A program made the position numbers and the translations under genes. Source: Francisellaceae bacterium UBA6186 (GTDB lineage Bacteria; Pseudomonadota; Gammaproteobacteria; UBA6186; Azoamicaceae). Taken from it: a stretch of 8,357 bases of DNA. Every line of letters begins with the position of its first letter. Within the stretch, counting starts at the first letter, position 1. Shown here piece after piece: positions 219 to 8,357 of the stretch. Under the pieces are notes generated by a model that was given only the letters and a program-made list of their open reading frames with translations, searched no databases and was not told where the DNA came from. Location: the NCBI GenBank assembly GCA_002422785.1, contig DITK01000058.1, forward strand, positions 1 through 8,357. The letters run 5' to 3'.

Positions 219-3005
219 CTAAGCTTTAACTTTTCTCTTTTTAACTGGTGCGGAAGGAAGCAAACTTGTTAGTTCTTCATAACGCTTGAACAAGAATGCA
301 ACTCTGCTAGCATCGTCATCAGTACCTTTGTATCCAAATATCTTATCAACCACTTTGTTATTCGCAGTGTGTGCTTTAGCAAGTTCTACAGGCATTGTTA
401 AAGGATCATATAAATCAGCCAAACTAAATGCTGGGTATTTTTCTCTTGCATTTAAAATATCTTGTGCAGTTTTATTTACAGCTGCATCAGCTTCTTCACT
501 TACAGATTTAGGATAAGGAAAATTGTTATAAACGATTGTATTTGAGTAACTATAATCACTTTTCATTCTTCCGCACACTGCCCTCATCCAAGCCATATGC
601 ATAGAACTATTTAAAATAGCAAAACTACTAAGAGTGGCATTAGAAACAAAAAATATTTTATCGCCACAAATAGTAGAGTTGTTTAAATATGCAATAGGTA
701 TGTAAGCTCTGCGTTCACTACTTACTTTTGGTATCGCCAAGTACGTAGAAGAATTAGATATTCTAATTTCACCAAATCGTGTTGGGCTATTAGCTAGTGC
801 AACTGTGATTTCTTTTTTAGATGCAAGTCTCATTTTTCTTACAGCTTCAACACGCTCTAATACAAGTGGCATTTTCTTAAGCTCTGATGCAGAAATATTT
901 TCTAACCATAAACACCAACGATCAATTCCATTAATAAATTCATCACCCATTAAGTAACGCTTTATCCATTTTTCTGCACTAGGTTCTTTAATTAATAAAT
1001 CATTTTTTTCATCATCACTCAATAATAAATTTCCACCATCAACAGGGGAACTTCCCCTAGTCATTGTGGGCATACTTAAAATTAGTGGTGATTTTCTTTT
1101 TTCTAATAAAACGTTAGCAGCATCAACTAAGTAAGCATTGATTTGCTTTACTTTAACTTCAACAGGCTCTAATGCAATATCTGCATATGTATATATACGC
1201 TTAATATTTCTATCAAATTTTGCAAATCCAATAACAACACAATGAACAGCAGCAATTCCTTTGCCTTCATTACTCCATTTAAATGTTTTGTGCGCAAAGT
1301 TAATTTTTATTCCCTTAGCACTTAAACTACGCCAAAGTACTGCGGGCTGTTCACCCTGTGTAATACTGTTAGTTGAAACAAAAGCACATTCGATTAATTC
1401 ATTATTCTGTATGTAATTTGCAGCTTTTACGTACCAACCACAAACATAATCGAGAACACCTGCACCATGTAATTTACCAAATACAACTTCTAAATCTTCT
1501 TTCTGCTCTTTACTTTGTACGCTGTAACCAATAAATGGTGGATTTCCCAACACATAACTACATTTAAGTGCTGATAAAACATCATCCCAGTCAATACGTA
1601 AGGCATTATTAACTGTAATTTGAGGTGTGGCAGTTAAAGGAATAGTTGCACGTGTCGTACCAAAATACTTTGCTGCCTGCTCATTTTGTTGATGATCTGT
1701 TATGTATAGAGCAACACGAGCGATATGTGCAGCAGCTTCATCTATTTCAATACCATAAAACTGTGTAAGATTGACACGGCATAGAGTTGAAACATCAAGT
1801 AACCCTCGCCTCTTATTTAATTCAAATAATTCAGCAATTACATCATTTTCTAATTTTCTTAGTTCTCTGTATGCAATAACAAGAAAATTACCACAACCAC
1901 AAGCTGGGTCAAAAAATGTAAGGGTTGGCAATTTATCGTAAAGAGTTTTAAGCTTTGTTTTATTATTCTTTGCCGTTTCAAATTCAGCTCTTAGTGTTTC
2001 TAAAAACAACGGATTAATAACACGAAGAATATTACGTTCGCTAGTGTAATGTGCACCTAACTCTCTTCTTGTAGCTTGACGTGTTTCGTGCGTTGCATGT
2101 TCCTCAAGTACACCTTGAAACATTGCACCAAATATTGCAGGACTAATTGCACTCCAATCAAGCGTTGCACACGTAAGTAATAACTCTCTCAACTCACTAT
2201 TAAAAACTGGTATACGTGTACGTTCTTCAAACAAGCTACCGTTAACATACGGAAATGCTGCAAGAGTGTCATCTAACGTACTTTGCCTATCAGCATCATT
2301 AGTATTTAAGATGTCAAAAAGTTCGTTTAGTTTTTGCCCAGTATCACTACCATCAGCTTTAGCATTTTCAACAAATCTTCTAAAGCGTCCGTTATCACCA
2401 AAAATGTTTGTGTCATCTGCAAACAAGCAAAACAACAAACGAGTTAAGAAAACTTCTAAGTCACGACCTTTAAAATTAATTCGTATTAGTGCTTCATGCA
2501 ATCTACTAATTGCATACGCCGCGTTACGATTGATTGGCGTTTCCTCGACAATTGCTGTCTGCTCATCACCATATAAAAATTTAAACCAACTACCATGTTT
2601 TGGTAATTCAGCTAGCGTTGTTTCATGTGTTTCATTAGCAGCAAGATCATGTAGGACAATACGTGAAAAGTCACTGGTAATTATGTACTTGGGACGCTCC
2701 TCTGGTTTTAGTGCAAGAAAATATTCTTGTGCTTGCTCGTAAGCTATGCCCAAGTCCTTGCCCTTACTCTTATGCTCAACAATCAGCAAGCCTGGTATAA
2801 AGCTATCAATGCGACCTAAGTTGCCATCCAACTTACGTACTTGCTGTTCAAATACAGTCACCTCTGCGGCACTAATACCAAAGCAGTTATAAAAGCTTGC
2901 CCAAAACATCTGTGCTTGCCGTTGCTCGTTCTCAGCTGTTTTGAACTGTTTGGCAAATTTCTGCAAACGTGTTTTTACTTCTGTGCTTGATAGTCGTGCT
3001 GTCAT
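219..3005 (-). CDS. MmeI-family type IIL/IIG bifunctional restriction endonuclease and N6-adenine DNA methyltransferase (single polypeptide, 928 aa from ATG 3005)
   Basis: A long ORF that matches remembered MmeI blocks along its whole length. The N-terminal PD-(D/E)xK motif is D-x9-E-x-K in GRIDSFIPGLLIVEHKSKGKDL (D codon 2805-2807, E 2775-2777, K 2769-2771). Further matching blocks are LLFCLFADDT, AAFPYVNGSLFEE, LDWSAISPAIFGAMFQ and LGAHYTSERNIL. SAM motif I is FFDPACGCGNFL (1881-1916) and catalytic motif IV is NPPF (1533-1544). C-terminal blocks are CAFVSTNSITQGEQ, KINFAHKTFKW, GDEFINGIDRWCLWL, LYDPLTMP and FLFKRYEELTSLLP. I moved the start from GTG 3029 to ATG 3005 because an AAGAGGG Shine-Dalgarno lies 5 nt upstream of the ATG, whereas the GTG falls inside the predicted -10 box. 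Confidence 0.95.
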   Translation of the reverse strand: MTARLSSTEVKTRLQKFAKQFKTAENEQRQAQMFWASFYNCFGISAAEVTVFEQQVRKLDGNLGRIDSFIPGLLIVEHKSKGKDLGIAYEQAQEYFLALKPEERPKYIITSDFSRIVLHDLAANETHETTLAELPKHGSWFKFLYGDEQTAIVEETPINRNAAYAISRLHEALIRINFKGRDLEVFLTRLLFCLFADDTNIFGDNGRFRRFVENAKADGSDTGQKLNELFDILNTNDADRQSTLDDTLAAFPYVNGSLFEERTRIPVFNSELRELLLTCATLDWSAISPAIFGAMFQGVLEEHATHETRQATRRELGAHYTSERNILRVINPLFLETLRAEFETAKNNKTKLKTLYDKLPTLTFFDPACGCGNFLVIAYRELRKLENDVIAELFELNKRRGLLDVSTLCRVNLTQFYGIEIDEAAAHIARVALYITDHQQNEQAAKYFGTTRATIPLTATPQITVNNALRIDWDDVLSALKCSYVLGNPPFIGYSVQSKEQKEDLEVVFGKLHGAGVLDYVCGWYVKAANYIQNNELIECAFVSTNSITQGEQPAVLWRSLSAKGIKINFAHKTFKWSNEGKGIAAVHCVVIGFAKFDRNIKRIYTYADIALEPVEVKVKQINAYLVDAANVLLEKRKSPLILSMPTMTRGSSPVDGGNLLLSDDEKNDLLIKEPSAEKWIKRYLMGDEFINGIDRWCLWLENISASELKKMPLVLERVEAVRKMRLASKKEITVALANSPTRFGEIRISNSSTYLAIPKVSSERRAYIPIAYLNNSTICGDKIFFVSNATLSSFAILNSSMHMAWMRAVCGRMKSDYSYSNTIVYNNFPYPKSVSEEADAAVNKTAQDILNAREKYPAFSLADLYDPLTMPVELAKAHTANNKVVDKIFGYKGTDDDASRVAFLFKRYEELTSLLPSAPVKKRKVKA

Positions 3006-3015
3006 GTTTACCCTC

Positions 3016-3057
3016 TTGTCTCGTATCACTATAGCCGCTATAGTAGTTTTGTGACAA
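3016..3057. promoter_or_regulatory. Dyad-symmetric divergent promoter pair with a perfect 17-bp palindromic operator candidate (3028-3044)
   Basis: The palindrome is ACTATAGC-C-GCTATAGT (3028-3044). Plus-strand promoter: -35 TTGTCT 3016-3021, 17-bp spacer, -10 TATAGT 3039-3044, followed by SD AGGAGA 3073-3078 and ATG 3085. Minus-strand promoter: -35 TTGTCA (complement of 3052-3057), 18-bp spacer, -10 TATAGT (complement of 3028-3033), followed by the SD and ATG 3005. The outer TTGTC and GACAA elements are also inverted repeats. Confidence 0.5.
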
Positions 3058-3084: not shown

Positions 3085-3384
3085 ATGGCAACGCGTAAAC
3101 CACGTACTTCAAAAACAAGTGATGAACTTAAGAAAGAGCTTGAAGCAGCTAAGAGAAAAATTGCAGATCTCGAAAAACGTGCATATGCAGAAGAACTTAC
3201 AGAGCTAATTAAATCAACTAATATTGTCGCTGATTTTACAAAAATAAAAAGCAAAGTTAAAGACATTAAACCAGTTGCAATTTTACAAGCCATCGCAAGT
3301 GCTGTTGGTTTAAAACGAGTACAGATAGTAGAACCTGAACCTGTCAAGCGTAAGCCACGTTCACCTAAAACAGGCACAAAGTAA
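3085..3384 (+). CDS. Hypothetical small basic protein (99 aa): central coiled-coil-like region with an RKPR motif in each terminal tail
   Basis: A strong SD (AGGAGA) lies 6 nt upstream of ATG 3085. The stop overlaps the next start (TAATG at 3382-3386). Charged heptad-like segment: DELKKELEAAKRKIADLEKRAYAEELTELIK. N-terminal tail TRKPRTSKT and C-terminal tail KRKPRSPKT. The antisense 119-aa ORF has no comparable signals. Confidence 0.75.
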   Translation: MATRKPRTSKTSDELKKELEAAKRKIADLEKRAYAEELTELIKSTNIVADFTKIKSKVKDIKPVAILQAIASAVGLKRVQIVEPEPVKRKPRSPKTGTK

Positions 3385-3740
3385 TGGCGGCGCAACGTAG
3401 GAAACTCACGTTGCGTGAGCAAATATTTAACGAAAAAGTTAAAGCATGGAATTTATATAACAGTATGCAAGTTCAAAAGGTACTTGAACATACAAGCAGA
3501 GATGAACAAGATGAAATCAACTATACCTATAAAAAAATATACAAATACTGGGGGGGCGTTGAATTTGTTAATTGGTTACGTGCTGTATATAAAATATGCA
3601 GAGACAGAAACAAGAATATCGAAAACATCATCATCTTAAATTTACCTAAAAGAACAGATAGTGATGCAGTGAAAATTCATAACTTAAAAGTTATTGCAAA
3701 GCAGATGGGTTTGGATGTAACTATTACTAAAAATTCTTAA
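3384..3740 (+). CDS. Hypothetical protein (118 aa), translationally coupled to the upstream gene
   Basis: ATG 3384 overlaps the upstream TAA by 1 nt. It is on the same strand as its neighbours and fits tightly between them. I recognise no family motif. It contains a G7 homopolymer at 3550-3556. Confidence 0.75.
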   Translation: MAAQRRKLTLREQIFNEKVKAWNLYNSMQVQKVLEHTSRDEQDEINYTYKKIYKYWGGVEFVNWLRAVYKICRDRNKNIENIIILNLPKRTDSDAVKIHNLKVIAKQMGLDVTITKNS

Positions 3741-3766
3741 ATTTAATTCTTAATTTGGTTACCAAC

Positions 3767-4456
3767 ATGCTTGATACAACATCATATGCTGATAAGTTAC
3801 CTCAAACACTTAATGAAACTCTAAAAGAGTTTACTGCTGGTGAATGTGTAATGGTTAGAAAAACAAAAGACAATGACAAGCGTAAAGGTAAATCAGGTAA
3901 TTGTCACATTAATGTACAAAACTGTATAGATATAGAAGGTGGAAACTCAGTAAGTGGTTGGCTACTAAAACGAGATCAAAAACTTATTGATAAAGATATG
4001 TATGCTTGGAATTTTCACAGTGTTTGGGAAAAACCTGACGGGAAATTACTTGATGTAACTGAAGATAAAAATTATATTGGTAGAGATAAAAGTATATTCG
4101 TACCAGATAGCTATAGAAAACCTGATTTAATTAAAGGTTTATCTTTTAACAGCTTTATTATTTTTACTAATCATGCGTTTACAAAGTATTACGGCAATGC
4201 TATTGGTAAAGACTTAATTTCAAACAAAATATATTGGTGTGACAATACACTTACAAATTTAATTGAAAAAGATAAACATAGTGGTGAATATCTTTTACTT
4301 AAAAATTACCCAAATAATTTAAAAAAGATGTGTGATCAATATGAATTTGATTACATAGATGGAAAATTCATTGCTCGTGCAGGAAGCAAATACGAAGGTA
4401 TGGATGGTTTACCAATACAAGCTATATTTGATTACAACTTAAAATTGAGAGCATAG
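3767..4456 (+). CDS. Hypothetical protein (229 aa from ATG 3767; alternative TTG 3755) with a putative transglutaminase-like or papain-like Cys-His-Asp core
   Basis: This is the third gene of the operon, 26 nt after the previous stop. The motifs GKSGNCHINVQNC (Cys codon 3902-3904) and WNFHSVWEKPDGKLLDVTED (His 4016-4018, Asp 4052-4054) give a C-x37-H-x11-D spacing. The local context resembles the G-x-C ... H-x-W-x-E ... D-x-T pattern of transglutaminase-like folds. Neither candidate start has a strong SD. Confidence 0.8.
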   Translation: MLDTTSYADKLPQTLNETLKEFTAGECVMVRKTKDNDKRKGKSGNCHINVQNCIDIEGGNSVSGWLLKRDQKLIDKDMYAWNFHSVWEKPDGKLLDVTEDKNYIGRDKSIFVPDSYRKPDLIKGLSFNSFIIFTNHAFTKYYGNAIGKDLISNKIYWCDNTLTNLIEKDKHSGEYLLLKNYPNNLKKMCDQYEFDYIDGKFIARAGSKYEGMDGLPIQAIFDYNLKLRA

Positions 4457-4472
4457 CTTAATTTTTATTAAA

Positions 4473-5048
4473 TTAAATTAATTCCACTGCACGCCTTTGC
4501 ATAGCCTCGTTAACATCTATATAGACCTGAGTTGTAGAAATATTGGCATGGCGAGCAAGCGACATTAATACGCGAACACCAACGCCCTTCTCAGCTAAGT
4601 TAGTAATAAAAGTACGTCTACCACTATGACTACTTGCGCCATTTATACCTGCTCGTTTGTATAGATAATGAAAATGTTGCGTTAGCGTGTTAGCTGTAAA
4701 TCCTTCACCACCCTTCTTCTGTGTATAAATCAACTTGTCTTGCTTGTTAATACATGGAACTTGTGCAATGTAAGATTGCAATTCTTTACGTAGCTTTTCA
4801 CTAACAAATACTGTTCCAGTCTTGCTACCTTTTGTTTGTTCTGCACTTAAGTAAATTTCACCTTTTACTTTATCCTCATCGTCAAGTACATCGCCATAAC
4901 GCAAACTAGCAACTTCTTTGCTACGTAATCCTGCGTAAAAAGTTAAAAGTAATGCAATACGATTTCTATGCGAATGATTACGTGTTGCAACATAATCCAA
5001 TACCTTTCGTATTTCCTGTGCTGTTAGTGTTTTTGCTTGCTTTGACAT
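4473..5048 (-). CDS. Small tyrosine site-specific recombinase, catalytic domain only (191 aa from ATG 5048; the ORF is open to ATG 5138, giving 221 aa)
   Basis: The catalytic signature is present: R in FYAGLRSKEV, H-x-x-R in SHSGRRTF, H in LARHANIS and Y in TTQVYIDV. Size and N-terminus (MSKQAKTLTAQEIRKVL) resemble FimB/FimE-type recombinases that lack an arm or core-binding domain. I prefer ATG 5048 because AGGAGA lies 6 nt upstream, and the 30-codon extension would have to read that AGG AGA as tandem rare codons. ATG 5138 has a weaker AAGGA. Confidence 0.85.
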   Translation of the reverse strand: MSKQAKTLTAQEIRKVLDYVATRNHSHRNRIALLLTFYAGLRSKEVASLRYGDVLDDEDKVKGEIYLSAEQTKGSKTGTVFVSEKLRKELQSYIAQVPCINKQDKLIYTQKKGGEGFTANTLTQHFHYLYKRAGINGASSHSGRRTFITNLAEKGVGVRVLMSLARHANISTTQVYIDVNEAMQRRAVELI

Positions 5049-5189
5049 TAATGCTCTCCTAAATGTAAGCTTTTGTATGTCTAAAGCATATTTTCTTTGT
5101 TTGTTTTCTGCGACCTTTTTATTGTTATTTTGTATCATTGCAATTTCCTTAATTAATTCAACAACTTAATGCTCCACTTACAATAAAAT

Positions 5190-5213
5190 CAAAGCTTTTG
5201 TGTATTAGCTTTG
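5190..5213. repeat. Inverted repeat CAAAGCT-N10-AGCTTTG in the recombinase upstream region
   Basis: Arms at 5190-5196 and 5207-5213 are perfect reverse complements. It contains AAGCTT. The 10-mer AAGCTTTTGT recurs as a direct repeat at 5067-5076 and 5192-5201. Confidence 0.4.
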
Positions 5214-5249
5214 GTTTTTACTAAATTGATGCATGTTGTCTATCTCCCA

Positions 5250-5358
5250 CAGCTTCAAGCTGGCGCTGTAATACGCTGTGTACGCTATTAGTCCATTTTC
5301 CTGTTATACATACACTCAGTTAGCGTTTATCTACGTTTACAGCGTGTATTGCAGCTTG
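5250..5358. repeat. Composite dyad and iteron cluster (candidate origin or recombinase/Rep binding region)
   Basis: Palindrome CAGCTT-C-AAGCTG at 5250-5262. Three tandem units follow: CGCTGTAATA (5264-5273), CGCTGTGTA (5274-5282) and CGCTATTAG (5283-5291). There is an imperfect inverted repeat of about 29 bp between 5256-5284 and 5333-5358. Its perfect cores are CAAGCTG/CAGCTTG (5256-5262 and 5352-5358) and CGCTGTAA/TTACAGCG (5264-5271 and 5337-5344). A T-rich, C-poor tract follows at about 5360-5455. Confidence 0.45.
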
Positions 5359-5468
5359 TATCAGTGTTGTTGTTTTATATTTACTTGCTGACTTTGTTGT
5401 TAGTATTTTTAACTTGTATTGTTCTGTAAGTATTAGTTAGTTTATTTTATTTAGGCAAAGCTTCGCTA

Positions 5469-5492
5469 ATTAAAGCTTAAACAAGCTTTAAT
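5469..5492. repeat. Perfect 10-bp stem, 4-nt loop hairpin ATTAAAGCTT-AAAC-AAGCTTTAAT, 38 nt downstream of the Rep-like gene stop
   Basis: Arms at 5469-5478 and 5483-5492 are exact reverse complements. It is flanked by the near-palindrome GCAAAGCTTCGC (5456-5467). Neither strand has a U-tract, so it is not a canonical intrinsic terminator. Confidence 0.45.
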
Positions 5493-5529
5493 GCAATCAG
5501 CAAAAGACAAACGTGGTCAGTAATGCTGT

Positions 5530-6057
5530 TTAAGATAGTTGCCATAACACGTTGTCCGTGTCATGCGTTCCAACTTCTTTTGTAATGTATTCCATCCAAC
5601 CGCTATCAGCTAAGTCAACTTTGTACTGTTCGTCAATCTCACAAACATGCATCTTAGCTTCACGTACCAAAGCATCAACTTGGTTTAGTGCTATATGACT
5701 TGGTAAATTACCAATAGCCAAATGTAGGTGTAAATTTTTGCTACTTCGCTGCCCTTCCACCACAACAAAGTAATTTAATTTCTTTCCATACTTTTCAGCT
5801 GCACGTTTACCAAATACTTCTCTATTCAGCTTTTGTGTAAATCGCTTTGCAACCCTATCGCAATCACTTCTTTGTAGCTTTTCAATATAAACACCATTAG
5901 CATTTTTTATACTTGAATGTTGCTTTAAGGTGAGTGTTAAAGCGATTGGGTATTGCTTGTGAAGAGAAGATGCAAATGACCTTACAGCTTGTTTGACTGT
6001 TGGTGTTGCATTTGGTTTATATGCGGTTTTATTGCGAATATCTGCTAGTGTGTACAT
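5530..6057 (-). CDS. Minimal HUH-superfamily Rep-like protein (175 aa; rolling-circle Rep, inovirus Gp2 or YagK/YfjJ-like)
   Basis: All three rolling-circle motifs occur in the canonical order. Motif 1 is IALTLTL (residues 38-44). Motif 2 (HUH) is NLHLHLAIG, with H110 at 5728-5730 and H112 at 5722-5724. Motif 3 is EYITKE, a Y-x-x-K with Y157 at 5587-5589 and K160 at 5578-5580. The pre-HUH context RFTQKLNREVFGKRAAEKYGKKLNYFVVVEG is typical of small Rep proteins. No helicase domain is present. The RBS is weak. Confidence 0.7.
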   Translation of the reverse strand: MYTLADIRNKTAYKPNATPTVKQAVRSFASSLHKQYPIALTLTLKQHSSIKNANGVYIEKLQRSDCDRVAKRFTQKLNREVFGKRAAEKYGKKLNYFVVVEGQRSSKNLHLHLAIGNLPSHIALNQVDALVREAKMHVCEIDEQYKVDLADSGWMEYITKEVGTHDTDNVLWQLS

Positions 6058-6132: not shown

Positions 6133-6165
6133 TTTTAGCTCAATTTACTATTTTTGGAGCTAAAA
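6133..6165 (+). promoter_or_regulatory. 9-bp stem-loop that would sequester the Shine-Dalgarno of the downstream gene (or a DNA operator)
   Basis: TTTTAGCTC (6133-6141) and GAGCTAAAA (6157-6165) are perfect reverse complements separated by a 15-nt loop. The 3' arm covers the GGAG SD (6156-6159) and ends directly before ATG 6166. Confidence 0.4.
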
Positions 6166-6606
6166 ATGAGTGTTTTAAACAAGTTCAAATTGGTTGTCGC
6201 AAATCGTCAAAACAAGCTTAGCCCAACTGCTTTTAGACGTAAAAAGCTATGTGGAAAAATTGCTGAACAGCTTGCTATGGCTAAAGCAAAAAAAGAAGGT
6301 AAAACATTCATTGCTACAAAGCTTAAACGTGTTGTAGATGCGAATACTGGAATAGCAACTGATATTGAAGTTACTAAACGAGTGAAAGAATGGTACTGGT
6401 TTGAGAATAATAAAATTCAATTGCAAATCATGTACGGCACTAAGCCGCTTACATTAAATGCTAAAGGTGCAAATACAGTTGAAATTGCTAGCGGTGACGA
6501 ACTGATTAATACATTAGAAGTATTAATAGAAGCTGTTGCAACGGGTGAACTTGATGATGCAATTGAAAGTGCTAGTAAAACACTACGCGAAAGATTTGAT
6601 AAGTAA
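6166..6606 (+). CDS. Hypothetical protein (146 aa), divergent from the Rep-like gene
   Basis: A GGAG SD lies 6 nt upstream of ATG 6166, and the TTG at 6154 lacks one. It is a clean ORF followed by a hairpin. I recognise no family motif. Confidence 0.8.
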   Translation: MSVLNKFKLVVANRQNKLSPTAFRRKKLCGKIAEQLAMAKAKKEGKTFIATKLKRVVDANTGIATDIEVTKRVKEWYWFENNKIQLQIMYGTKPLTLNAKGANTVEIASGDELINTLEVLIEAVATGELDDAIESASKTLRERFDK

Positions 6607-6660: not shown

Positions 6661-6789
6661 TTATAAATGCTTGGGTTACCAATGCACTATCTACAGTAAG
6701 CACCACTCACGCTTTTTTAATTGCTGAGTATGAATATGGTATTGGCAATGTACTGATGATTGGTACTATGATTATTAATTATTAATGGT

Positions 6790-6984
6790 ATGAAAATAAA
6801 AGAAATTACAACATTACAGTCATCCGCTACAAAAACACCGCAACAACAAAGAATTGCAGGTCTACAGCGACAAAAACAAGTGGCAAGTGATGCACTTAAG
6901 GCTGAACGTAATAGACAAAAAATACAAAAAGCACAAAGTCAAATTGCAAAAGTAAAAGCTACTGCGTCTGCAACTAACTTATAA
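6790..6984 (+). CDS. Possible small Q/K-rich protein (64 aa)
   Basis: This is the only ORF in the 470-bp gap between 6606 and 7080. It has low-complexity, coiled-coil-like composition and a poor RBS. It could be spurious. Confidence 0.35.
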   Translation: MKIKEITTLQSSATKTPQQQRIAGLQRQKQVASDALKAERNRQKIQKAQSQIAKVKATASATNL

Positions 6985-7079
6985 CCGTCTACAAGCTACT
7001 GTTTTATATTCTTTTAACGGAACGGTTTACGAATTTATTTTGCGTTGCTGTAGGGTTATTTTGACATAAAAATTAACTT

Positions 7080-8357
7080 TTAACGTGGCAAAATCAATCC
7101 GTCTTTAATAACGTATTGTGCCAGTGCATTAGTTACCATTCGTTCTTTAGTAGTATGGTAATAAGTATCTTTAATTTGTTTTACGCTTGTTCCACACATT
7201 TCAGCAACTGCACTTAGCGAAAGATTACTATTAATCTTATCTGTAATAAAGTAATGTCTGCAGCTATACGGAACAATATCTCGTGTATTCAAGTTCATTA
7301 TTTCAGCTTTATCTAATAAAACTTTGAAATGATGGTCAATTGCACGAACTGTTATTGGTACATAACCGTTAGTGCTAAAAATTAACGCATCAGTTAGTTT
7401 TTTAGGTTTTTCTTTACTTGCTTCTTGTGCATAAAATTTAGGCTTGAATAACTTTAGTAATCTATCAAAATAATCTAAATCTTTAACCATAAAGACACGA
7501 GTTTTATCAACTTTACTCGTCTCAGCACGTACAGTTATTTTAACTAATTCGTGTTCTTCACCCTCATAAGTGTGTGTCTCATGTCGTATATCTTGCCAAC
7601 GTAATTGTAATTGCTCACCACGTCTTAATCCCGTCATAATTGCAATTGCAATATGAAAACATACTAGCGCTTTTACATAATTTTTATCATCATCTGTATC
7701 TTTCAGTGCTTCTTCTAAATATTCATTTAGTGCTTTCCAGAAGTCATTCATTTCTTCAGTTGTAAAGATACTGCGTCTTAACTTATCGTCTCCCTTATCT
7801 AACTTCTTCAATTTCTTAAATTCAAAACCATCAATGTCAGTTAACTTATTTTTATAAAGCCAACTCATCATTGCATTTATTGTGCTCTGTTCGTTAAGTA
7901 CAGTTGTTTGGCTAACAGCAATGCTTTTTTTTGTTTTAGTACGATTGCTTGAATAGTTAAAGCAATCCATTCGCTCTAACTCTTTCAGCTTTGTATCTTT
8001 CTTAATGAAGTTTAGCCAATGCTCTAAGTGCGTTTTAATTGTAGACAAACGACCTTTTACAATAATGCCGTCATCAACATCAATTTGCCGTTGCTTAACG
8101 TAACGATCAACACCCTCTTTTGTTGTTATTGAAAAGTAAGGTTTGTTGTTAGCTTCTAATACTTTTAATTCGTAATAGTATTTTTCAGCTTTATCTATTG
8201 CTGTTTGTCTATTTCTTACTTTAAGACTGAAACGTGCGTACTTGTGTTCTTTTACAAGCCACATCCTAAAGTGCCAAAACTCGCCGCGTTTATATAAGAG
8301 TACGTTGTCAAACAACGCAATCTCGTCTTCGCTAAATTCTTTTTTCTTAAGTGTCAT
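7080..8357 (-). CDS. Tyrosine integrase (phage-integrase family, 425 aa; the start codon coincides with the window edge)
   Basis: The N-terminus is integrase-like (LLYKRGEFWHFRMWLVKEHKYARFSLK). Box I is TGLRRGEQLQLRWQDI. The box II region is PYSCRHYFITDK ... MCGTSVKQIKDTYYH. The ATG occupies 8355-8357, so upstream signals cannot be seen. Confidence 0.9.
   Translation of the reverse strand: MTLKKKEFSEDEIALFDNVLLYKRGEFWHFRMWLVKEHKYARFSLKVRNRQTAIDKAEKYYYELKVLEANNKPYFSITTKEGVDRYVKQRQIDVDDGIIVKGRLSTIKTHLEHWLNFIKKDTKLKELERMDCFNYSSNRTKTKKSIAVSQTTVLNEQSTINAMMSWLYKNKLTDIDGFEFKKLKKLDKGDDKLRRSIFTTEEMNDFWKALNEYLEEALKDTDDDKNYVKALVCFHIAIAIMTGLRRGEQLQLRWQDIRHETHTYEGEEHELVKITVRAETSKVDKTRVFMVKDLDYFDRLLKLFKPKFYAQEASKEKPKKLTDALIFSTNGYVPITVRAIDHHFKVLLDKAEIMNLNTRDIVPYSCRHYFITDKINSNLSLSAVAEMCGTSVKQIKDTYYHTTKERMVTNALAQYVIKDGLILPR

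What the first reader, a model, noticed from the sequence alone, without database searches (positions are those of the whole stretch)
5049..5529. Non-coding tract of about 480 bp rich in AAGCTT-centred palindromes, CGCTGT iterons and a T-rich stretch: ori-like or recombination site
AGCT occurs 8 times in 5139-5529. A rough estimate at about 35% GC predicts about one occurrence. Four of these are full AAGCTT hexamers and a fifth lies at 5067-5072. They are arranged as dyads: CAAAGCT-N10-AGCTTTG (5190-5213), CAGCTT-C-AAGCTG (5250-5262), GCAAAGCTTCGC (5456-5467) and the perfect 10-bp hairpin at 5469-5492. Between them lie three tandem CGCT(G/A)T units (5264-5291), mirrored by TTACAGCG at 5337-5344, which forms an imperfect inverted repeat of about 29 bp. 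A C-poor, T-rich tract follows at about 5360-5455 and resembles an unwinding element. The tract sits between the HUH Rep-like gene and the small recombinase. It could be the Rep nick or origin region, the recombinase target, or both.
Basis: seen in the sequence. Interest (0 to 1): 0.6.

Follow-up and report, generated by a model that had tools for sequence, protein, structure and literature searches.

The report
Origin-and-control region of a guaA island
The AGCT-rich gap between a small DNA-nicking (Rep) gene and a mini-recombinase gene is a real, conserved two-part control region of an undescribed family of small mobile islands in freshwater bacteria: most likely the Rep protein's origin hairpins, a slot where cargo genes are inserted, and the recombinase's own binding and promoter region.

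Summary
AGCT occurs 8 times in 5139-5529, against 3.3 expected from dinucleotide shuffles (P=0.005). AAGCTT occurs 4 times against 0.47 expected. All the dyads are present. However, 5049-5138 is coding: it is a conserved 30-codon N-terminal extension of the recombinase.

About 90 related loci, mostly Limnohabitans- and Polynucleobacter-like islands beside guaA, share the order int, DUF6641, Rep, gap, mini tyrosine recombinase. The gap has two separable modules:
- **Rep-proximal module (5454-5528).** Two hairpins show repeated compensatory changes. G·T wobbles occur only on the Rep-sense strand. An almost invariant GCTTTAATTRGCGAAGCT follows. This is most likely the HUH Rep's origin or nick region.
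- **Recombinase-proximal module (5185-5349).** It holds conserved inverted repeats and a covarying 12-N10-12 dyad over a weak promoter. This is most likely the recombinase's binding, regulatory or oriT-like site.

The T-rich tract between the modules is hypervariable and holds 0.4-3 kb of cargo in a third of the loci. It is a cargo slot, not a demonstrated unwinding element. There are no iterons.

The closest known system is the repR-oriT-mobK module of plasmid pIGRK. Function is inferred, not shown. Earlier agents of this scan reached similar readings on other genomes. I rate it a new variant of a known kind.

The parts
5530..6057 (-). 175-aa HUH Rep-like gene (context). Motifs are LTLTLKQ, HLHLAIG and EYITKE.
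   Evidence: Pfam PF23343 REP_ORF2-G2P, E=1.1e-7. The motifs are invariant in 30 homologues. The AF2 model has pLDDT 81.7. Its best, weak, PDB matches are parvovirus NS1, AAV Rep and PCV2 Rep nuclease/origin-binding domains.
5498..5528 (-). Hairpin A, starting 1 nt after the Rep stop. Outer stem is CAGCA/TGCTG, inner stem GAC/GTC, with a 7-nt loop and conserved internal-loop bases (TTACT / TTT).
   Evidence: Covariation in 74 sequences: closing pair CG 47 / UA 18 / AU 7; inner pairs CG 37 / AU 33 / GC 4 and CG 67 / UA 7; 99.5-99.7% of cells paired. There are at least 9 and at least 6 independent changes on the Rep tree. The centroid DNA fold gives the same structure.
5469..5492 (-). Hairpin B: ATTAAAGCTT-GTTT-AAGCTTTAAT. 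The stem is conserved. The loop varies in sequence and in length (3-7 nt).
   Evidence: Perfect 10-bp arms (I11). 95.9% of cells are paired, with compensatory variants AAAGACC/GGTCTTT, AAAGT/ACTTT and AAAGAT/ATCTTT. There are 16 G·T and 0 A·C cells on the Rep-sense strand. The A·T<->G·T switch occurred about 10 times on the Rep tree. The 3' arm is more conserved than the 5' arm (1.90 vs 1.68 bits).
5454..5469 (-). Block C: TTAGCGAAGCTTTGCC. The 5' half (TTRGCGAAGCT) is nearly invariant and the 3' half is variable. It is a sequence motif rather than a conserved hairpin.
   Evidence: Information content is 1.76 bits in the 5' half and 1.25 bits in the 3' half. As a helix only 82.9% of cells pair, with many G·U and mismatched cells.
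5350..5453 (.). Hypervariable spacer, A-rich on the Rep-sense strand and T-rich on the + strand. This is the cargo slot.
   Evidence: The spacer cannot be aligned even between close relatives. The 21 loci with a long gap, out of 64 with a measured Rep-to-recombinase distance, hold 0.4-3 kb of extra DNA with ORFs here, for example a GmrSD-type nuclease in L039. Composition is given.
5334..5349 (-). D1: ATACACGCTGTAAACG. The family consensus is AAACA(A/C)GCTACAAACGC. It marks the start of the recombinase-proximal conserved module.
   Evidence: Nearly universal block in 58 sequences. Its GCTAC pairs with GTAGC about 35 nt downstream in the RNAalifold consensus, 89.7% paired. It forms an 8-bp perfect inverted repeat with 5264-5271 in the window.
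5264..5289 (-). D2: AATAGCGTACACAGCGTATTACAGCG. The family consensus is AACAGCGT(G/A)(T/C)AGGGC(T/G)TAT.
   Evidence: Conserved block. An nhmmer profile of D1-D2 finds one copy per island, with two in L085 flanking a cargo ORF. A partial copy follows int in the window's clade.
5240..5263 (-). D tail: CCAGCTTGAAGCTGTGGGAGATAG. It holds a clade-specific palindrome, CAGCTT-G-AAGCTG, plus a Rep-3'-end-like motif, CTGTGGGAGATAG.
   Evidence: The palindrome is seen only in the window's clade, where others have CCAGC-N5-GCTGTGG. In L057 the D tail shares 12 nt with the locus's own Rep 3' end. In L039 the D tail is fused through 17 nt of Rep 3' end to a second A-B-C copy.
5185..5219 (-). Dyad E: AAAAACCAAAGCT-N10-AGCTTTGATTTT. 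Its right arm overlaps a weak -35 (TTGATT, 5187-5192).
   Evidence: The spacer is exactly 10 nt in 58/58 sequences. The arms covary (CG 41 / GC 10 / AU 4; AU 41 / UA 16; CG 37 / GC 5). 9 of 12 pairs show a change on both sides, and 0/500 shuffles reach the observed score.
5136..5168 (-). Putative weak -10 (TAAGTT, 5163-5168), RBS AAGGA (5146-5150) and recombinase start codon (5136-5138).
   Evidence: Invariant TA, TG and RBS columns. ATG, TTG or GTG sits in the same column in nearly all of the 58 sequences. The consensus promoter scan finds nothing at its threshold, so the promoter is an inference.
4473..5138 (-). 221-aa tyrosine recombinase with a catalytic domain only.
   Evidence: Pfam Phage_integrase covers residues 37-211, E=1.5e-26, with no core-binding domain. 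Homologues are 220-221 aa. The extension frame is open in 52/55 and the other frames are closed in 55/55.

Best explanation
The tract 5139-5529 is the cis-acting backbone region of a small genomic island that integrates beside guaA. It is made of two independent modules separated by a cargo slot.

**Module 1 (5454-5528)** lies directly after the Rep stop codon. Its Rep-sense strand folds into two hairpins (A and B). These are followed by the nearly invariant GCTTTAATT(A/G)GCGAAGCT. I infer that this is the origin, that is the recognition and nick region, of the 175-aa HUH Rep. After the island is excised as a circle, the hairpins would extrude from the supercoiled DNA. Rep would then cut the Rep-sense strand in or next to hairpin B and prime rolling-circle copying.

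**Module 2 (5185-5349)** travels with the mini tyrosine recombinase. It consists of conserved inverted repeats (D1/D2) and a 12-N10-12 dyad (E) that overlaps a weak promoter. I infer that it is where the recombinase, or a partner protein, binds. Binding would regulate the recombinase gene and would let the enzyme act on DNA. The enzyme could act either as a MobK/MpsA-type relaxase at an oriT or as a site-specific recombinase.

The T-rich stretch between the modules is a hypervariable spacer into which cargo genes are inserted.

The AGCT excess arises because AAGCT/AGCTT half-sites are reused in these dyads.

**Shown:** conservation, the two-module anatomy, base-pair covariation, the strand asymmetry, and the cargo slot.
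**Inferred:** which protein acts where, nicking, replication and transfer.
For: - Synteny int - DUF6641 - Rep - gap - recombinase holds in about 90 loci, beside guaA where the flank is present.
- The gap is 32-43% GC in hosts of 34-52% GC and is AGCT-rich throughout the family.
- Module 1 is always within a few nt of the Rep stop. It is single-copy per island and has no second copy in the 1.31-Mb genome.
- Helices A and B have 94% of cells paired against 26-50% when the partners are slid. 10 pairs have changes on both sides, and 0/500 shuffles reach the observed values. The changes are repeated independent events on the Rep tree.
- Hairpin B has 16 G·T and 0 A·C cells on the Rep-sense strand, so the structure is read on one strand as ssDNA or RNA.
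- Unpaired bases and the 3' arm of B plus block C are the most conserved positions, at 1.9 bits. That fits protein recognition rather than mere folding.
- Rep is of the replication-initiator class. It matches PF23343, and its best structural matches are the NS1, AAV Rep and PCV2 Rep origin-binding nuclease domains. Those enzymes use a hairpin plus short repeats.
- Module 2 stays with the recombinase when 0.4-3 kb of cargo separates it from Rep.
- Dyad E has an invariant 10-nt spacer and covarying arms.
- The recombinase lacks a core-binding domain, like MobK, MpsA and TcpM. In pIGRK the oriT lies in the 456-bp gap between repR and mobK, the same gene order (PMC8152469). In SGI1 the oriT lies near mpsA (PMC6414798).
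Against:
- The nick site is unknown.
- The single-sequence folding energy is only mildly better than shuffles (z=-1.8, 11/200).
- The one-strand asymmetry fits an RNA (the rep 3' UTR) as well as ssDNA.
- The structural matches of Rep are weak (E>=6e-3, TM 0.33-0.41).
- Rep has no relative on any PLSDB plasmid, and no circular contig was found. Autonomous replication of this family is therefore undocumented.
- No consensus sigma-70 promoter was found.
- MOB_M membership of the recombinase could not be tested.
- Dyad E could simply be a weak bidirectional terminator or the operator of an unidentified repressor.
Confidence: 0.55

Rival explanations
1. Module 1 is an RNA element, not a DNA origin. 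Hairpins A and B would form the structured 3' end of the rep transcript, acting as a stabiliser, a processing site or an atypical terminator. Alternatively they give rise to a small RNA needed for island mobility, as the sgm-sRNA does in SGI1.
For: The element starts 1-5 nt after the rep stop and lies on the rep sense strand. G·U-type wobbles are tolerated only on that strand. SGI1 needs a 3'-derived sRNA encoded between oriT and mpsA (PMC9299015).
Against: No U-tract follows either hairpin, and the terminator scan finds nothing. There is no Rfam match. Unpaired bases and the flanking TTRGCGAAGCT are as conserved as the stems or more so. That is unusual for a terminator or stabiliser. No RNA data were available.
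Confidence: 0.17
2. The whole gap is a pIGRK-type oriT. The mini tyrosine recombinase would be a MOB_M relaxase that nicks here and lets the excised island be mobilised by a co-resident conjugative element. Under this reading the Rep-proximal hairpins would be part of the relaxosome site rather than a Rep origin.
For: The gene order and gap size match repR-oriT1(456 bp)-mobK. The recombinase has a catalytic domain only and carries the R-K-H-R-H-Y residues. There are several inverted repeats. The AGCGA motif that pIGRK oriT carries four times occurs in the invariant block C.
Against: Cargo of up to 3 kb splits the gap in a third of the loci, and module 1 always stays with Rep rather than with the recombinase. 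No similarity to MobK, MpsA or TcpM beyond the general recombinase fold could be tested. AGCGA is a 5-mer, so chance is not excluded.
Confidence: 0.13
3. The conserved blocks are cassette boundaries. A-B-C and the D block would be the ends at which cargo modules are inserted, duplicated or exchanged. The agent would be either the recombinase acting on folded or duplex D sites (integron- or pdif-like) or the HUH protein acting in an IS200/IS605- or IS91-like single-strand reaction.
For: L085 has two D blocks of different lineage types flanking one cargo ORF. L039 has a second complete A-B-C copy joined to a D tail through 17 nt of the Rep 3' end, with different cargo after each copy. D tails in several clades carry Rep-3'-end-like motifs. 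The hairpins are strand-specific.
Against: This rests on only two informative loci. Most cargo insertions show no duplicated boundary site. None of the dyads has the 6-8-bp spacer of a classical recombinase core site. Rep's best structural matches are replication initiators, not IS608-type transposases. Plain illegitimate recombination at microhomology explains L039.
Confidence: 0.12
4. The tract is ordinary intergenic DNA. Under this reading the palindromes and the AGCT excess would be chance or compositional.
For: The single-sequence folding z-score is modest. The dinucleotide-shuffle P for AGCT in this one window is 0.005, not extreme.
Against: About 90 loci with only 56-65% Rep identity keep the blocks, with compensatory changes and invariant spacing. 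The AGCT excess recurs in 39 of 40 related gaps.
Confidence: 0.02

Closest known systems
MOB/replication module of Klebsiella plasmid pIGRK (repR - 456-bp oriT1 - mobK; pHW126-group rolling-circle plasmids; PMC8152469)
   Same: - A rolling-circle-type initiator gene, then a roughly 400-bp AT-rich gap with several inverted and direct repeats, then a catalytic-domain-only tyrosine-recombinase-like gene in the same orientation.
- The gap carries the downstream gene's promoter.
- An AGCGA motif is present.
   Different: - This module is chromosomally integrated, inside an island that has its own large integrase.
- Rep belongs to a different family (PF23343-like, 175 aa) and has no relative on any PLSDB plasmid.
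- The gap is split by a cargo slot.
- No G-rich (G4) element was seen.
- Sequence relatedness to MobK or oriT1 could not be tested, because the pIGRK record is not in the collection.
SGI1 mobilisation module (oriT, sgm-sRNA, mpsA/mpsB; PMC6414798, PMC9299015)
   Same: - An integrative island with a tyrosine-recombinase-like protein that lacks the core-binding domain.
- A repeat-rich cis site lies in the vicinity of that gene.
- A structured RNA may contribute.
   Different: - SGI1's oriT is a 125-bp GC-rich segment, whereas this region is AT-rich.
- No MpsB-like partner was identified here.
- SGI1's replication protein and origin are of another type and lie elsewhere in the island.
Double-strand origins of HUH replication initiators (pMV158/pT181-type plasmids; circovirus, parvovirus and inovirus origins)
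   Same: - A conserved hairpin, or hairpins, lies next to the initiator gene on the strand that is nicked.
- Short repeated half-sites lie nearby.
- The initiator carries motifs I-III with one catalytic Tyr.
   Different: - The nick site is not identified.
- There is no sequence match to known nick consensus sequences.
- The initiator is a bare 175-aa nuclease domain without a helicase.
- The element is integrative.
GIsul2 and other guaA-3'-end islands (PMC9376610)
   Same: Small islands that are integrated beside or in the end of guaA by a tyrosine integrase.
   Different: The backbone is different: no HUH Rep with mini-recombinase pair has been described for GIsul2. I did not test the att site here.

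Membership tests
Rolling-circle double-strand origin of an HUH Rep | Cognate HUH initiator with motifs I-III encoded next to the site | tested here: met
   PF23343 hit. LTLT, HLH and YxxK are invariant in 30 homologues. The site is always within a few nt of the Rep stop.
Rolling-circle double-strand origin of an HUH Rep | Conserved hairpin on the nicked strand able to present the nick site | tested here: met
   Hairpins A and B show compensatory changes and strand-specific G·T. This shows only that the hairpins exist, not that they are nicked.
Rolling-circle double-strand origin of an HUH Rep | Defined nick sequence cleaved by Rep; the fragment supports replication | not testable with these tools
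   This needs in vitro nicking and replication assays.
MOB_M (tyrosine-recombinase-like relaxase) oriT module | Relaxase consisting of the catalytic domain only, without arm- or core-binding domains, and with the catalytic Tyr | tested here: met
   The Pfam domain covers 37-211 of 221 aa. R, K, H-x-x-R, H and Y are read in the sequence.
MOB_M (tyrosine-recombinase-like relaxase) oriT module | Repeat-rich oriT in the gap directly upstream of the relaxase gene | tested here: inconclusive
   The architecture matches: D1/D2 inverted repeats and dyad E lie upstream of the gene. oriT activity is unknown.
MOB_M (tyrosine-recombinase-like relaxase) oriT module | Score above the cut-off of the MOB_M profile, or clear homology to MobK, MpsA or TcpM | not testable with these tools
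   The profile is not on hand and the pIGRK record is not in the collection. NCBIfam gives only generic Xer, integron and invertase hits far below their cut-offs.
Classical tyrosine-recombinase core site (lox/FRT/dif/att type) | Two inverted 9-13-bp arms around a 6-8-bp crossover spacer | tested here: not met
   Dyad E has an invariant 10-nt spacer. The loop of hairpin B varies from 3 to 7 nt. D2 reads GCGTA-N9-TACGC in most clades and is not kept in the window.
Iteron-type (theta) origin | Regularly spaced tandem direct repeats of about 17-22 bp | tested here: not met
   TRF finds nothing. No direct-repeat family has more than 2 copies.
Intrinsic terminator / known RNA family | GC-rich stem followed by a U-tract; or an Rfam model match | tested here: not met
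   0 terminator-like sites. 0 Rfam matches at E<=1.

The most novel reading that the evidence does not exclude
The interval from the Rep stop to the D block may be a serviced cassette slot. Cargo genes would be bounded on the left by the strand-specific hairpins A-B-C and on the right by a D block. They would be copied or moved as single-stranded circles. The HUH protein would do this by acting at an origin-like and a terminator-like site, in an IS91-, Helitron- or IS200/IS605-like reaction. Alternatively the mini recombinase would act on folded DNA, as an integron integrase does. This would make the family a new kind of gene-cassette platform that spreads defence genes among streamlined freshwater bacteria.
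Probability: 0.12. Interest if true: 0.85.

Novelty: new variant of a known kind. Interest (0 to 1): 0.55.

Why it matters
These islands are abundant in freshwater Betaproteobacteria; 362 metagenome stretches encode the Rep. They carry swappable defence cargo, for example an MmeI-type restriction enzyme in this window and a GmrSD-type nuclease in a relative.

The conserved gap is the handle for testing how the islands replicate, move and acquire cargo. It provides defined, short DNA substrates for the 175-aa HUH nuclease: two hairpins and an invariant 18-mer. It also provides a defined substrate for a core-only tyrosine recombinase, an enzyme class whose relaxase-like members (MobK, MpsA, TcpM) are still mechanistically obscure.

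If the module works as inferred, it would link pIGRK-type plasmid modules with integrative islands and explain how genome-streamlined plankton exchange defence genes.

Tried and rejected
- **DNA similarity.** The 2.1-kb core has no DNA-level match in the plasmid or phage collections.
- **Rep against plasmids.** Rep protein has no tblastn match in 72,556 plasmids. The recombinase hits only generic 'site-specific integrase' genes at 50% identity or less.
- **PDB sequence search.** A profile search with Rep gave only spurious hits.
- **Relatives of the genome.** Rep was not found in the 60 relatives searched, so no close comparison came from there.
- **Motif and model scans.** Rfam gave nothing. 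The consensus promoter and terminator scans gave nothing. TRF gave nothing. No credible small ORFs lie in the gap; the six ORFs of 20-37 aa there are low-complexity.
- **Dyad E as a paralogue of hairpin B.** The idea was two Rep sites flanking the slot. Smith-Waterman scores between the two halves are not above shuffles in most loci (z<2). Rejected for lack of support.
- **Duplicated dyads at cargo boundaries.** Not found in the 21 long-gap loci.
- **Circular contigs.** None were found: there are no terminal overlaps in any locus or in contig C31.
- **Block C as a conserved hairpin.** Rejected. Its 3' half varies and only 83% of cells pair.
- **Tools and records not available.** The pIGRK record could not be fetched.
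Full report
**What is in the window.** The window is essentially a whole 8.4-kb contig (C31, 8383 bp) of a 1.31-Mb, 31.6% GC metagenome-assembled genome. Its genes are as follows:
- an MmeI-family restriction-modification enzyme (219-3029, minus strand);
- three small ORFs (3085-4456, plus strand);
- a 221-aa tyrosine recombinase made of the catalytic domain only (4473-5138, minus strand);
- the tract under study;
- a 175-aa HUH Rep-like protein (5530-6057, minus strand; PF23343);
- a DUF6641 protein (6154-6606, plus strand);
- a 425-aa integrase (7080-8357, minus strand).

The integrase ORF is complete, and the contig ends 26 bp upstream of it.

**Check of the observation.**
- AGCT occurs 8 times in 5139-5529. 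The expectation is 1.1 from base composition and 3.3 from dinucleotide-preserving shuffles (P=0.005).
- AAGCTT occurs 4 times against 0.47 expected, reached in 0 of 5000 shuffles.
- No other 391-bp window of the contig has as many AGCT. The genome-wide density is about a quarter of the local one.
- The tract 5350-5453 is 56% T and 8% C.

Two corrections are needed:
1. 5049-5138 is coding. In 58 relatives an RBS and an ATG, TTG or GTG align at the position of 5136-5138. The 30-codon frame down to the internal Met is open in 52 of 55 distinct sequences, while both other frames are closed in all 55. Its length is constant.
2. There are no tandem iterons.

**The family.** The Rep has hundreds of homologues of 173-175 aa. 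The metagenome scan confirmed 362 stretches that encode a relative. I obtained 9 loci from genomes, 80 from metagenomes and one from IMG/VR. The genome loci come from Limnohabitans, Polynucleobacter, Rhodoferax and other Burkholderiales. Almost all loci show the order int, DUF6641 (opposite strand), Rep, gap, mini recombinase. Where the flank is present, GMP synthase (guaA) precedes int. This is therefore the backbone of a small island integrated beside guaA. The literature library holds no description of it. Earlier agents of this scan met the same family on other genomes and read it similarly. I treated those notes as leads and tested the points myself.

**Anatomy of the gap.** The distance from the Rep stop to the recombinase's internal Met is 485-491 bp in most loci. 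Twenty-one loci have a gap of 680-3490 bp because ORF-bearing DNA sits inside it. The conserved sequence falls into two blocks, each of which stays with its neighbouring gene.

*Module 1: the first ~85 nt after the Rep stop (window 5454-5528, read on the minus strand).*
- Hairpin A (5498-5528) has an outer stem NAGCA/TGCTN' and an inner stem GNN/N'N'C.
- Hairpin B (5469-5492) has a stem TTAAAGCT/AGCTTTAA and a loop of variable length and sequence.
- Block C follows (5454-5469).
- In a 74-sequence alignment, 94% of cells in the proposed pairs are paired, against 26-50% when the partners are slid. Ten pairs show changes on both sides, and no shuffle reaches the observed values.
- On a Rep gene tree, the closing pair of A switched among C-G, T-A and A-T at least nine times. 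An inner pair switched at least six times.
- Hairpin B has 16 G·T cells and no A·C cell on the Rep-sense strand. This state arose about ten times. The fold is therefore selected on one strand, as ssDNA or RNA, and not as a duplex palindrome.
- The most conserved positions are the 3' arm of B plus TTRGCGAAGCT, at 1.9 bits. The unpaired bases of A are as conserved as its stems. This points to sequence-specific protein recognition.
- Block C is a conserved motif, not a conserved hairpin.
- A covariance model of A+B finds exactly one copy per island and none elsewhere in this genome.

*The spacer (5350-5453).* It is A-rich on the Rep-sense strand. It cannot be aligned even between close relatives, and it is where cargo lies when present. 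One example is a GmrSD-type nuclease in L039. It is best described as a cargo slot. Nothing shows that it is an unwinding element.

*Module 2 (5185-5349).*
- It begins with D1 (5334-5349) and D2 (5264-5289). Together these form an imperfect inverted repeat conserved across the family.
- Next comes a D tail (5240-5263), whose CAGCTT-G-AAGCTG palindrome is specific to the window's clade.
- Dyad E follows (5185-5219). Its spacer is 10 nt in 58 of 58 sequences, and its arms covary, for example ACCAAAGCT in one group and ATGTAAGG in another.
- E's right arm overlaps a weak -35 (TTGATT). A weak -10 (TAAGTT) lies 18 nt downstream, and the conserved RBS and start follow. The promoter is an inference, because the consensus scan found none.

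**Why AGCT is enriched.** Five of the eight AGCT copies sit in the arms of B (two), the centre of C (one) and the arms of E (two). The other three lie in clade-specific dyads. Related gaps carry 5-17 AGCT, except L091 with 3. The median is 11 against 5.2 expected, and densities are 17-43/kb against 4-12/kb in the flanks. AGCT itself is not obligatory. Some lineages have AAAGC-GCAA-TGCTTT in B or GTAAGG in E. The excess therefore reflects repeated use of AAGCT/AGCTT-type half-sites rather than selection on the tetramer.

**Who acts on what.**
- The Rep's AlphaFold model is confident (pLDDT 81.7). Its best matches, though weak, are the nuclease/origin-binding domains of parvovirus NS1, AAV Rep and circovirus Rep. 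IS608-type transposases and conjugative relaxases do not lead the list. Initiators of that class recognise a hairpin plus short repeats.
- Tight linkage, strand specificity and invariant unpaired bases add to this. Module 1 is therefore most likely the Rep origin.
- The recombinase has all the catalytic residues but no core-binding domain. MobK, MpsA and TcpM show the same architecture. pIGRK has the same order, repR, then a 456-bp gap with oriT and the mobK promoter, then mobK. Its oriT carries inverted repeats and AGCGA motifs (PMC8152469). SGI1's oriT lies near mpsA, and an sRNA is encoded between the two (PMC6414798, PMC9299015).
- Module 2 is thus the natural candidate for the recombinase's binding, regulatory or oriT-like site. 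Whether the enzyme is a relaxase, a resolvase or a cassette recombinase cannot be decided here. None of the dyads has the geometry of a classical recombinase core site.

**Unusual loci.**
- L039 carries a second complete A-B-C copy 3.4 kb downstream. It is joined to a D tail through 17 nt identical to the Rep 3' end, and different cargo follows each copy.
- L085 has two D blocks of different lineage types around a 174-aa cargo ORF.
- D tails of several clades contain Rep-3'-end-like motifs, with 12 nt identical in L057.
- In L079 the conserved sequence stops right after hairpin A.

These cases suggest that A-B-C and D can act as module boundaries. That is the basis of the 'cassette slot' reading. 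They are few, however, and microhomology-mediated rearrangement explains them too.

**Limits.** The pIGRK record was not available. No circular contigs were seen. Rep has no plasmid relatives. Replication, nicking, transfer and recombination are therefore all inferred.

**Verdict.** The tract is a conserved, bipartite cis-acting region, consisting of a Rep origin-like module, a cargo slot and a recombinase control or target module. It belongs to an island family that I did not find described in the library searched, and it is closest in logic to the pIGRK repR-oriT-mobK module. I rate it a new variant of a known kind.

Noticed in passing
L039:6560-6790 (and L039:3290-3400): There is a second full copy of the Rep-proximal hairpin element 3.4 kb downstream of the first. 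It is fused to a D block through 17 nt identical to the Rep 3' end (CTGTGGGATTTAGCGTAA). Different cargo follows each copy.
   Followed up: partly
L085:5903-5990 and 6681-6768: Two D blocks in direct order, of different lineage types, flank a 174-aa minus-strand membrane-like ORF upstream of the recombinase. This suggests that D blocks can bound cargo modules.
   Followed up: partly
window 6978-7003 and 7043-7055: A D2-like motif (AACAGTAGCTTGTAGACGGTTATAAG on the minus strand) and its inverted partner (CCCTACAGC) lie just downstream of the integrase gene. The same pair is clearer in L015, L016 and L087 (AGCCCTACAG...ACAGCGTATAGGGCT). Islands of this clade therefore carry two TAGGGC-type sites in direct order, bracketing DUF6641-Rep-gap.
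   Followed up: partly
window 6133-6165: A perfect 9-bp inverted repeat, TTTTAGCTC-N15-GAGCTAAAA, lies in the rep/DUF6641 divergent gap. Its right arm covers the GGAG ribosome-binding site of DUF6641 (ATG at 6166). It is again AGCT-centred.
   Followed up: no
window 5240-5253 vs 5525-5538: The D tail (GCTGTGGGAGATAG, minus strand) is 79% complementary to the Rep stop region (CTATCTTAAACAGC). D tails in other clades resemble Rep 3' ends (L057: 12 nt identical; L020 clade: TGTGGGA). The meaning is unknown.
   Followed up: partly
contig C31 end (window 8355-8357 plus 26 bp): The integrase start codon is the last codon of the window, and the contig ends 26 bp further on, where guaA would be expected. 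The assembly probably breaks at the island boundary. Rep was not found in the 60 relatives of this genome searched, so the contig is either a recent acquisition or a binning guest (34.3% vs 31.6% GC).
   Followed up: partly
L079:1805-1880: The Rep and hairpin A are intact, but the sequence diverges into GC-rich DNA immediately after hairpin A's 3' arm. Hairpin B and block C are missing. This is a possible rearrangement breakpoint between A and B.
   Followed up: no
window 5049-5138: The recombinase's 30-codon N-terminal extension (basic, with a conserved KQRKY motif) shows almost equal variability at all three codon positions (0.78/0.79/0.86 bits). The catalytic core shows 0.56/0.46/1.18. This suggests relaxed or dual (DNA-level) constraint.
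   Followed up: partly
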